33,278 nt of DNA, from contig JWZX01002339.1 in NCBI GenBank assembly GCA_001275005.1, positions 1 to 33,278 on the forward strand, written 5' to 3'. This stretch comes from Chrysochromulina tobinii (taxonomy: Eukaryota). A program made the translations under genes and the position numbers. This document shows positions 19,187 through 22,100 of the stretch, piece by piece (the first letter of the stretch is position 1; each line of letters opens with the position of its first letter). The notes below the pieces were generated by a model. The model was not told the origin of the DNA. It saw only the letters and a list, made by a program, of their open reading frames with translations, and searched no databases.

Positions 19187-22100
19187 ATGGTGCGTGTCCG
19201 AGGGGGTGGCTGCGCCGCTAGCAAGCCTGGCGCACAAGCCGAGCCCTTCATTCAGGACCTGGATGGCCCTTCGCTGGGCAATGGCTCACGCGTAAGAGTC
19301 AAGCAGAGCGTCTCGGTGCCAGCATATGGCTGGGGCCGCGTCAAGCATGGCATGGTGGGGGTCGTCACCGAAATCGACTCCGATGGCGACCTGAAGGTGA
19401 GCTTTCCAGGCATCATTGCAGGATGGAATTGCAGGCCTTCTGACATGGAGGTCGTTGGAGGTCGAGATCTTTTACTACAGGATCGCACGGAAGAAGCGGG
19501 CGGCCTCGTCAAGGCGACCGTGGGAGAGTACGTCGTGAGCGGCGCGGGCGGCCGCCGCGCGAGAACCGTCAACGGCACCTACAGCTACACTCGGCAGCAC
19601 AACGGCGCGGCGCTGTACACAAAAGAGGGCGGGATCGCGATCATCTACTATGGTGGGGGCAGTTTGGGTGGCTCATAAACGACGAGGACGATACGGAAGG
19701 CTGGTACTACTCGAAAGAGGGCTCGAGAGGCTCTGTGCCATGTGGCAAGTGGACAAAGGACGGATACGATGGCAGTGACGTGTTGCCATGCCCCACCGTG
19801 GCCAGAGTGGGTGACGAGAGCGATGAGGGGGGGCGCCCGCAGGTGGGTGCCACAGTGCTTGTGCTCAGCGCATCTGACTCGTCGACGCGCCCTTACGTGG
19901 GCCAGACAGGCAGACTACTCGAAGATGACGATTCGGGTCGCCCGTTCAAGGCGGAGTTCGATGACGGCAATGCGTGGTGGTTCAAGGAGGGTGAGCTCCA
20001 AAAGGTTGGCTCGCTGCTGCAATCGGCGCATAGGCAAACGCCTTGGAGTGGCTCCGTGAAATGCCATGGATGTGAGATGTTCGGCCCGTCGTCGCAGACG
20101 GGCCCGGGGGGCTGTGCGCACTGCGGGCTGTGCAGCGTGTGCTGTGCCAAGGCGCCTTGGCGCGCACTGTGCCCCAAGGCGCCCACGATGTTATCCCCGG
20201 AGCTTCCCGGCAGCAGCACGCTGTGCGTGGGTGCGCGCGTGCGCGTCAAGCGGAGCGTGTCGAATCCAACCTACGGCTGGGGCGGCGTCACCCATGGCAA
20301 GGTGGGGATCGTCAAACGCATCGATCCGGACGGCGACCTGAAGGTTGAGTTTCCCGACCACTCCGGTTGGACAGGCAAAAGCTCCGAGATGGAGGTGGTC
20401 ACCACCAGCACGATGGAGTTCCTGATGTGCATCCATGTATCGGGCGACAGAGGGGCCAACTGTTCGGGCACGTATAATCTCATCCCAGGCCAACTGCGTA
20501 ATGGAGGGCCATGCTACACGCGCGAGGGTGGTGCCGGAGCCATCTACTATGATGGTGCGTACTGGAAGATTTGCCAGGCAGGCACTGGCGCAGCAGAGAA
20601 TGGCTGGAACTTTTCACAGTCTGGCTTGTGCACTGCGGTGCCTTTGGGCAGCTGGGACGCTAGCAAGCGGAAAATAAGTGAGGTCGCTGGCGAATATTCG
20701 AGCCTCACCCTCGAGGATGGGACACTCGGCCGTGGATGGGACTTCGTCACTGAGAATACAGCACCCGAAGACGTGAAGGTTGCCGAACCAGTGCCCGAGA
20801 CGACCGAAACCGCGCCTACGGAAGTTGTGGAGCCGGCGGCCAAAGCGGCGACGGAGGAGGCGGCTGAGGCAAATAGCTCTTCGAAGATCTTCGAGATGGG
20901 CACCTCCGTGATGAGCGCAATTGTGCTGGCCTTCACGCCGCGTGGGTCCGTGTGGCCCAATGAGTTGGAGGGCGGGGACGACACCAACCTCGACGACATC
21001 GACGACGATGACGACGACGCAGTGCGGCCCACCGTGCCCATGGGTGCACCGCCCGAGATCATTCGCGTCCTCTCGGGACTGGACGACCGGCTCGCCGACG
21101 CGCTCCGCGCCGGCGACATCAAGCTGCTGAGCGTCTCGTGGCTGCGGCGGCTGCGGCGGCTGCGGCGGCAGCGGCGGCAGCCAAACGGGAGGCGGCTGAA
21201 GCGGCGGCAGGAGCTCGAGACGCTGTTCCTCGCATCGGGCAAAAAGTCGCCCTTCCTCTCGGCTGAGGAGGCCGTCGCGCTGCTTCGGCGCGGCAACCGC
21301 GGCGTGGGCGCGCTCACCCACGGCTGGCTGTCACCCGGCGAGTGCGACCCAGACGGCGCGCGCCTGGACATGGTGCTCGCCGCCCTCGAGGAGCACCCGC
21401 AGATCGAGGGCATCTTCTGGGACTATGCCTCGCTCTTCCAGAACCTGCCCGACCGCGATCGCACACCCGACGAGAGTGCCGCCTTCAAGCGCGCGATCAT
21501 GGTCATGGCCGACGTGTACGCCTCCGCCGTCGGCACCACCGTGCTGCAGTCGCGCGAGATCCCGCCCCGTCCGGAGGCATTCGACGGTGCGTTGTGCCTT
21601 TTCGGGCTGAAGGCCACGAAGGGGGAGGCCGCCGTCCGCGAAACGCTCGGCTGCTTTGGTGCCATCGTCGCATTCGAGCATACGCGCAACCCGCCCGTCG
21701 TGCGCTTCGCGTCGCACGAGGCGGCGCTCGCCGCCAAGCGCGCGGGGCCGTGGCCCGAGCTGTGCGACGGCATCGACACGCTGTACAACGAGCGTCCGTA
21801 TGACGAGCGCGGCTGGTGCGTCTTTGAGGATGCCGTGAGCCACGAGCTGCTCGCGCGGGCTGGGCGCGGTGCCGCGCGTGCGGGAGGCGCTCGACGCGCT
21901 TCCGTCCAAGGTGCTCGTGCTGCGCAGCGGCCGCCCCACAGAGCCGTGCGTGGCGCCGATCGGCGAGCTGGCCGATCGTGTCGAGCGGGTCGTCGCCCGC
22001 ATTGCTGGCGCCACCTTCACCGGCAAAGGCGATAAGGACACAGTGCCCGCCCTATACCGTGAGTACGTCACGCGCATCGTCGGTGTGGTGCAGCCTGTGC

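What the first reader, a model, noticed from the sequence alone, without database searches (positions are those of the whole stretch)
19187..19228. Ubiquitin-tail mimic masking a myristoylation site at the NLR N-terminus (MVRVRGG|GCAASK)
Seen: the first ATG gives M-V-R-V-R-G-G-G-C-A-A-S-K. Known: ubiquitin ends in LRLRGG and deubiquitinases cut after the di-Gly; N-myristoyltransferase prefers a free N-terminal Gly with Ser5/Lys6, and an adjacent Cys can be palmitoylated. Inference: cleavage after RVRGG by a host or viral DUB-like protease would expose GCAASK, giving protease-gated lipidation and membrane targeting of the receptor. It could also act as a tripwire for pathogen proteases.
Basis: partly seen in the sequence, partly recalled or inferred. 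Interest (0 to 1): 0.75.

Follow-up and report, generated by a model that had tools for sequence, protein, structure and literature searches.

The report
Ubiquitin-tail mimic hiding a lipid anchor
An immune-receptor-like gene of an alga starts with a five-residue look-alike of ubiquitin's tail followed directly by a sequence that fits the signal for fatty-acid attachment, and the same pairing recurs in its gene family and in unrelated proteins, so it is likely a portable cut-here tag that would unmask a membrane anchor, although cutting and lipid attachment are untested.

Summary
Real and not chance. ATG 19187 opens a NACHT-like/ankyrin gene of a haptophyte alga (relatives labelled Chrysochromulina) with MVRVRGG|GCAASK. 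Of 70 relatives picked by another domain, 27 carry R[VIL]RGG, 24 of them internally; 26 of 27 continue with G-x-x-x-S or with an unrelated M-G-A-G-A-S, against 2 of 294 other GG sites. The pairing also precedes an aldehyde dehydrogenase, an RGS domain, ankyrin and LRR proteins with unrelated flanks. No ubiquitin fold precedes it, so ordinary deubiquitinases are unlikely; ZUFSP/Mug105-type proteases, published to cut after R-x-R-G-G peptides, fit best. Best reading (0.6): a portable host cleavage tag that would expose a glycine for N-myristoylation and membrane targeting. A tripwire for viral proteases is less likely (0.1): the site is invariant and also sits on a metabolic enzyme. Cleavage, lipidation and the protease are all untested; 43 of 70 relatives lack the motif, relatives are not independent, and named carriers are one genus. 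Five paper searches found no description. This scan noted similar motifs before on other DNA (unchecked notes).

The parts
19187..25978 (+). NLR-like gene (about 2260 codons when the two frameshifts are bridged): leader - SH3_15 x2 - unnamed domain - NACHT-like NTPase - ankyrin repeats
   Evidence: twins P0001 (95.7% over 1610 aa) and P0108/P0109 (2181 aa, about 87.5%) read through and start MVRVRGG
19187..19207 (+). Seven-residue leader MVRVRGG, predicted to be cut off
   Evidence: cleavage inferred
19193..19207 (+). R-V-R-G-G, ubiquitin-tail-like R-x-R-G-G motif
   Evidence: matches the ZUFSP recognition rule in PMC5824887
19208..19225 (+). G-C-A-A-S-K, cryptic N-myristoylation-type sequence with an adjacent Cys
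   Evidence: fits Gly1, Ala4, Ser5 of the NMT rule in PMC4692089 section 5
19185..19273 (+). Multi-copy N-terminal module shared by many paralogues and shuffled against different flanks
   Evidence: 21 contigs laid in X6; loose ends at 19184-19185 and 19270-19273; joint 19273 to 20759
18855..19186 (.). Upstream spacer, likely non-coding
   Evidence: syntenic locus L058 differs here by many indels, several not multiples of three, and is colinear from the ATG on
19304..19447 (+). Mind bomb SH3 repeat (SH3_15), copy 1
   Evidence: E 1.2e-08; coordinates
20224..20391 (+). Mind bomb SH3 repeat (SH3_15), copy 2
   Evidence: E 1.5e-09; coordinates
21073..21561 (+). Unnamed alpha/beta domain (LTHGW, FWDYASLFQ, MADVY motifs; HET-like by recalled motifs only)
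   Evidence: confident model (pLDDT 82.6); no Pfam family; nearest Atlas clusters mostly Haptophyta, scores 0.8 or less
21559..21795 (+). RRM-like fold inserted after that domain
   Evidence: Z 9.6, rmsd 2.9, 74 aligned; RRM_1 in 6 of 24 relatives
22403..23344 (+). NACHT-like NTPase (GPAAGKT, LLLLDGLDE, CTSRP, FHLSFQEY)
   Evidence: E 3e-05, below curated cut-off
23831..25783 (+). Ankyrin repeats
   Evidence: E 4.3e-138
19650..19656 (+). Frameshift in a G run, likely assembly error
   Evidence: extra G in X1, X6, X13 contigs (these carry other differences too); L058 and P0001 read through
21855..21860 (+). Frameshift in a G run, likely assembly error
   Evidence: one base fewer in X1 and X6 contigs; twins read through

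Best explanation
R-x-R-G-G is a short tag copied onto many unrelated proteins that is likely cut after the two glycines by a host protease reading ubiquitin's tail alone, which would expose G-C-A-A-S-K for predicted N-myristoylation (and perhaps palmitoylation of the Cys) and so would send this receptor-like protein to a membrane. Shown: the sequence, its conservation, its coupling to G or M-G with Ser at +5, its spread over unrelated proteins, the absence of a ubiquitin fold. Inferred: cleavage; the protease (a ZUFSP/Mug105-type enzyme fits best); Met removal in the MGAGAS variants; lipidation; membrane targeting. In this copy the ancestral internal site likely became N-terminal when a rearrangement removed the upstream part and the Met just before the motif became the start. 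Whether cutting is constitutive or signal-gated is open.
For: (1) Family chosen by a downstream domain, not by the motif: 27 of 70 carry R[VIL]RGG; 26 of 27 continue (M)G-x-x-x-S; other GG sites in the same proteins 2 of 294. Chosen by the upstream linker alone, 20 of 20 continue with the full motif. (2) Two unrelated continuations join exactly after RGG: GCxxSK (21), its variant GRAPS (1) and MGAGAS (4); both fit the NMT rule (PMC4692089). (3) Same pairing in front of Aldedh (L053, M five residues before the motif), RGS (L115), Ank (L052), LRR (L024) and in 9 non-family hits of 20 from a profile search of 1.84 billion proteins; flanks of 20 contexts compared gave one related pair. (4) Three positions left free by the DNA pattern (hydrophobic before the first R, R not S, S at +5) are all met in 3 of 3 non-family frames with a Pfam hit (4 of 4 with L024, added after inspection; Fisher p 1.5e-05) against 5 of 116 distinct prokaryote chance matches. 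In open frames of 85 codons or more, S at +5 is 12 of 18 against 22 of 74 (p 0.006) and the hydrophobic residue 9 of 18 against 12 of 74 (p 0.004); no such shift in prokaryotes (p 0.73, 0.37). (5) Codons vary at silent sites over 13 contexts, so the constraint is on protein. (6) ZUFSP cores cut after R-x-R-G-G without folded ubiquitin (PMC5824887 passages; PMC8776766 Discussion part 1). (7) One paralogue lost both halves together (RVRGP then GC, no S-K).
Against: No cleavage, lipidation or localisation data exist. 43 of 70 relatives lack the motif (some are fragments). P0063 has RVRGG then ASASQ, without Gly at +1; P0033 keeps the downstream linker without the motif; P0028 is degenerate and its DNA occurs in an RNA library. 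Family members are recent paralogues and alleles, so they count as about two events, not 27. The DNA pattern is met often by chance (120 or more prokaryote loci), and 3 of 31 non-family frames against 0 of 28 with a Pfam hit is not in itself a clear excess; hydrophobic residue against R..S was not associated over all non-family matches (8 of 28, 13 of 64, p 0.42). The profile search finds the motif by construction. In L052 and L118 no Met precedes the motif in the open frame. ZUFSP activity in the passages seen is on AMC peptides and chains; cutting a normal peptide bond is only suggested by split-ubiquitin false positives. The review seen favours a charged residue at position 2, here Cys. Presence of a ZUFSP gene in this alga was not testable.
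Confidence: 0.6

Rival explanations
1. The motif is an uncut membrane or binding signal: two arginines plus a Cys for S-palmitoylation, or a docking site that imitates ubiquitin's tail.
For: Cys follows in 21 of 27 family carriers and all 20 profile hits (by construction). Earlier unchecked notes report RxRGG before Cys-rich tails in fungi.
Against: The MGAGAS and GRAPS variants have no Cys yet keep Gly1 and Ser5; Ser5 is an NMT preference that matters only at a free N-terminus; a Met placed exactly after GG makes sense only if that point becomes a new start.
Confidence: 0.17
2. It is a tripwire: a bait site cut by a Gly-Gly-specific protease of an infecting giant virus, switching the receptor on.
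For: It lies on an NLR-like protein; NACHT, TIR and LRR genes rise in virus-resistant cells of another haptophyte (PMC12489294 passages). One giant-virus contig encodes a GG-rich protein with RIRGG then GCGCGS (L304).
Against: The site is invariant rather than diversifying and also sits on an aldehyde dehydrogenase and an RGS protein. Three scans of viral contigs gave 1, 60 and 3 loci, none but L304 plausible on inspection.
Confidence: 0.1
3. It is a linker inherited by recent duplication in one family, and the outside cases are chance or leftovers of lost ubiquitin fusions without present function.
For: The whole 19185-19273 module is multi-copy and its flanks are also well conserved; most relatives do without it; the pattern is common by chance.
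Against: Two different continuations both fit NMT; R, R, G, G and Ser5 stay fixed while neighbours vary; free positions are enriched only in coding-like eukaryote frames; unrelated flanks.
Confidence: 0.1
4. The glycine is exposed without a protease, by splicing or by another start codon.
For: For the MGAGAS paralogues the internal ATG could itself be the start; starts are machine calls; two alleles have an in-frame ATG 16 codons earlier.
Against: No ATG precedes GC in the GCxxSK forms; no shared AG lies before the Gly codon in 13 contexts; contigs of RNA libraries run through linker and motif without a joint.
Confidence: 0.03

Closest known systems
Ubiquitin and Fubi fusion precursors (ubiquitin-ribosomal protein fusions, Fubi-S30; PMC10611586 seen as search listing only)
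   Same: R-x-R-G-G-type tail fused in line to a partner that would be freed by a cut after Gly-Gly
   Different: No ubiquitin fold: the leader here is seven residues; the freed end fits N-myristoylation
ZUFSP/ZUP1/Mug105 peptide activity (PMC5824887, PMC8776766)
   Same: Core enzyme reads R-x-R-G-G alone; conserved letters here match that rule
   Different: Passages seen describe ubiquitin chains and RLRGG-AMC as substrates, no natural ubiquitin-free protein substrate; enzyme not shown in this alga
AvrPphB, ORF4, NopT embedded acylation sites (PMC2708883 abstract)
   Same: Proteolysis exposes an internal site for fatty acylation that directs membrane localisation
   Different: Those cut themselves; here no protease domain was detected and the tag sits on unrelated proteins, so the protease would act in trans
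Post-translational N-myristoylation after caspase cleavage (BID, actin; PMC4692089 section 5 and reference titles)
   Same: Internal Gly becomes an NMT substrate after a cut
   Different: Cut would follow Gly-Gly, not Asp (caspase rule recalled); tag is modular
Protease-tripwire NLRs (NLRP1, CARD8; recalled, no call)
   Same: Cleavage near the N-terminus of an NLR-like protein
   Different: Site here is invariant and not confined to receptors

Membership tests
Ubiquitin/UBL fusion precursor | R-x-R-G-G tail in line with a partner | tested here: met
Ubiquitin/UBL fusion precursor | Folded ubiquitin-like domain before the tail | tested here: not met
   only M-V precede the motif here; at most 18 residues in two alleles
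Ubiquitin/UBL fusion precursor | Cleavage after Gly-Gly | not testable with these tools
   needs biochemistry
ZUFSP/Mug105 substrate | Both arginines of R-x-R-G-G conserved | tested here: met
   20 of 20 relatives picked by the upstream linker; rule from PMC5824887
ZUFSP/Mug105 substrate | A ZUFSP-family gene in the organism | not testable with these tools
   no genome held
Post-translationally N-myristoylated protein | Gly1, no Pro or aromatic at 2, small residue at 4, Ser/Thr/Cys at 5 after the cut | tested here: met
   GCAASK against PMC4692089 section 5; 26 of 27 carriers; position 2 is not the favoured charged residue
Post-translationally N-myristoylated protein | Myristate found on the new N-terminus | not testable with these tools
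   needs labelling or mass spectrometry
AvrPphB-type self-processing protein | Protease domain in the same chain | tested here: inconclusive
   no protease family; one domain remains unnamed
NLR-like STAND receptor | NACHT or NB-ARC NTPase | tested here: inconclusive
   NACHT E 3e-05, 24.3 bits, under the 26.7 cut-off; Walker motifs present; some relatives carry PF05729
NLR-like STAND receptor | C-terminal repeat sensor | tested here: met
   ankyrin here; LRR or WD40 in paralogues
NLR-like STAND receptor | Recognised N-terminal effector domain (TIR, HET, CC, death fold) | tested here: inconclusive
   no Pfam or Foldseek match; HET likeness is recalled only
Pathogen-protease tripwire | Bait site diversifies and is confined to immune receptors (recalled) | tested here: not met
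   invariant in family; present on Aldedh and RGS proteins

The most novel reading that the evidence does not exclude
Haptophytes and other microbial eukaryotes run a general maturation pathway in which a free-standing ubiquitin-tail mimic is a portable cleavage tag, read by a ZUFSP/Mug105-type protease, that licenses N-myristoylation of receptors, signalling proteins and enzymes at any position in a chain; these would be the first natural ubiquitin-free substrates for that protease family's peptide activity.
Probability: 0.4. Interest if true: 0.88.

Novelty: new variant of a known kind. Interest (0 to 1): 0.74.

Why it matters
It would add a new, readable sorting signal to eukaryotic proteins: lipid anchors hidden inside chains that myristoylation predictors, which look only at Met-Gly starts, would miss. 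It offers a testable reason why ZUFSP-type enzymes cut the bare RLRGG peptide faster than ubiquitin-AMC, a preference whose basis PMC8776766 calls not entirely clear. It also gives a handle on how shuffled NLR-like genes of bloom-forming algae gain or lose membrane targeting as a module.

Tried and rejected
Paper searches that found no description: LRLRGG + myristoylation, 0 papers; RLRGG + haptophyte, 0; LRGG + algae + cleavage + N-terminal + motif, 3, none on topic by title and abstract start; RxRGG, 1, on Fubi; 4 of 5 of ubiquitin-like motif, myristoylation, di-glycine, protease, protist, 0; one search listed 18 papers, none on this by title and abstract start. The library lacks most subscription papers; no supplements were read. 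A search for orthologues of the aldehyde dehydrogenase N-terminus found none (76 candidates). The Atlas gave no hit for the motif. Cluster look-ups named only Chrysochromulina; non-family carriers stayed unnamed. RNA: contigs of RNA libraries over the motif were paralogues (none 99% alike or more) and none covered 19080-19178, so start site and expression of this copy's 5' end are not shown; absence of cover proves nothing. Folding the unnamed domain gave only RRM matches for its insert and no Foldseek match for the rest; the wider structure search of that part did not run. L024's similar-looking domain aligned only over 21 residues. Viral scans: 60 matches to the MG form looked like chance on inspection, not tested further. 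A 13-base intron after the ATG was considered and rejected (out of frame, too short). An RGG-box RNA-binding reading was rejected from recall: the motif is single, not repeated. No complex prediction was run (enzyme-substrate case, no suitable protease sequence).

Full report
Observation. Window 19187-19228 encodes MVRVRGGGCAASKP. The ATG is the first of its frame after a stop at 19124-19126. A contig of run X6 is identical over 19080-19330 (it may be the source DNA). A looser version of the motif appeared once in 150 third-order Markov simulations of the window, with the caveat that the pattern was written after seeing it.

The gene. The frame carries two SH3_15 repeats, an unnamed alpha/beta domain with an RRM-like insert, a NACHT-like NTPase below Pfam's cut-off, and ankyrin repeats. 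Two one-base frameshifts in G runs are absent from other contigs and from twins P0001, P0108 and P0109, which start MVRVRGG; they are likely assembly errors. Named relatives are Chrysochromulina tobinii and parva, so the window is probably from that genus (inference). Paralogues end in ankyrin, LRR or WD40 repeats, as expected of a shuffling NLR-like family.

Start codon. The syntenic locus L058 differs upstream by many indels, several not multiples of three, and is colinear from the ATG on, so the upstream DNA is likely non-coding. L058 and P0110 have an in-frame ATG 16 codons earlier. With either start the glycine of GCAASK is not second, so it cannot be myristoylated without a cut. Upstream of 19185 the window is single-copy, while 19185-19273 is shared by many contigs (21 laid in X6) with loose ends at both borders; one joint skips from 19273 to 20759. 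The motif therefore travels as a module, and in this copy it likely became N-terminal by loss of the upstream part.

Family test. Seventy relatives were collected with the unnamed domain as query, independent of the motif. 27 of 70 carry R[VIL]RGG, at residue 3 or 4 in three and at 27-565 in 24 (starts are machine calls). After it come GCAASK (19), GCTMSK, GCSASK, GRAPSE (1 each), MGAGAS (4) and ASASQH (1). 26 of 27 fit (M)G-x-x-x-S, against 2 of 294 distinct other GG contexts. Selecting by the upstream linker alone gives 20 of 20 with the full motif; by the downstream linker 20 of 22, the misses being P0028 (RVRGP, S-K lost as well) and P0033. The MGAGAS branch continues with a different sequence from the GCAASK branch, so two unrelated myristoylation-type starts were joined at the same point after RGG. 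These proteins are close paralogues and alleles; they amount to about two independent events. 43 of 70 lack the motif.

Outside the family. One degenerate DNA pattern was scanned in metagenomes and, as control, in prokaryote genomes; both stopped at 120 loci, so chance matches are common. 18 of 120 metagenome loci were family. Frames open for 50 codons or more were scanned with Pfam: 48 of 120 and 28 of 120. Hits came for 3 of 31 non-family metagenome frames (Aldedh L053, Ank L052, RGS L115) and 0 of 28 prokaryote frames; L024 has LRRs further on. All four meet three positions that the pattern left free, against 5 of 116 distinct prokaryote matches (L024 added after inspection). Among 92 distinct non-family matches, long frames are enriched for Ser at +5 (12 of 18, 22 of 74) and a hydrophobic residue before the first Arg (9 of 18, 12 of 74); prokaryotes are not; the two features were not associated over all matches (p 0.42). 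A 12-row profile found 20 proteins at E 0.001 or better among 1.84 billion, all with the motif by construction, 11 family-like and 9 not, one of the 9 being a training sequence. Flanks of 20 contexts showed one related pair. Short leaders like this one arise separately (L053, L104, L115). Codons vary silently and no splice acceptor is shared. Non-family carriers bear no organism names.

Mechanism. The conserved letters are hydrophobic-R-[VLI]-R-G-G, with no ubiquitin fold. Passages of PMC5824887 state that typical DUBs need intact ubiquitin, that the ZUFSP core is made to cut after R-x-R-G-G, and that several protists have minimal Mug105-like proteins. [quoted passage not shown] Section 5 of PMC4692089 gives the NMT rule: Gly1 required, Ala allowed at 4, Ser preferred at 5, a charged residue favoured at 2; GCAASK fits all but the last. 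I commit to cut-then-myristoylate by a host R-x-R-G-G protease at 0.6. Every biochemical step is inferred. Rivals: uncut Cys/basic anchor or docking site (0.17), viral tripwire (0.10), inherited linker without function (0.10), splicing or alternative start (0.03).

Comparison. It works like AvrPphB-type embedded acylation (PMC2708883, abstract and opening seen) and caspase-exposed myristoylation, and looks like a ubiquitin fusion, but it fails the ubiquitin-fold test and shows no protease in cis. Passages of PMC12489294 link NACHT genes to virus resistance in another haptophyte and hold no word beginning 'myrist'. The searches listed under Tried and rejected found no description. Earlier unchecked notes of this scan report similar motifs in NACHT proteins of other protists and before Cys-rich tails in fungi; I did not test them and do not count them as support.

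Verdict. New variant of a known kind; interest 0.74.

Noticed in passing
window 17531-18854 (+): RING/TRAF-zinc-finger (SINA-like) gene just upstream; its one-base frameshift at 18569 is absent from contigs of X1, X6 and X12, so likely an assembly error.
   Followed up: partly
window 21073-21795 (+): A confidently folded alpha/beta domain with no Pfam or Foldseek match, followed by an RRM-like insert; found with MORN, EF-hand, kinase, WD40 and LRR partners in relatives. Possibly an undescribed haptophyte effector domain.
   Followed up: partly
L304 583-1374 (+): Giant-virus contig protein rich in basic residues and Gly-Gly pairs, including RIRGG then GCGCGS; resembles a Gly-Gly-processed virion precursor (recalled).
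   Followed up: no
L017, L028, L040, L060, L081 at their matches: Near-identical short frames with LRLRGGGCS(G/S)TK in five contigs; Thr at +5, frames short; unexplained.
   Followed up: no
L053 181-1809 (-): Aldehyde dehydrogenase with a 44-residue extension that begins with the motif; its cluster mate starts at the later Met.
   Followed up: partly
L034 1472-1816 (-): The motif lies before, not after, a weak ubiquitin-family match (E 0.025).
   Followed up: no
window 15654-16904 (+), 12418-13536 (+), 26698-31353 (+): Ordinary neighbours: actin-related protein, 2OG-Fe(II) oxygenase, kelch-repeat protein.
   Followed up: no
window 2-5965 (-) and 6374-7984 (-): Two long open frames, perhaps one very large helical protein; not scanned.
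   Followed up: no
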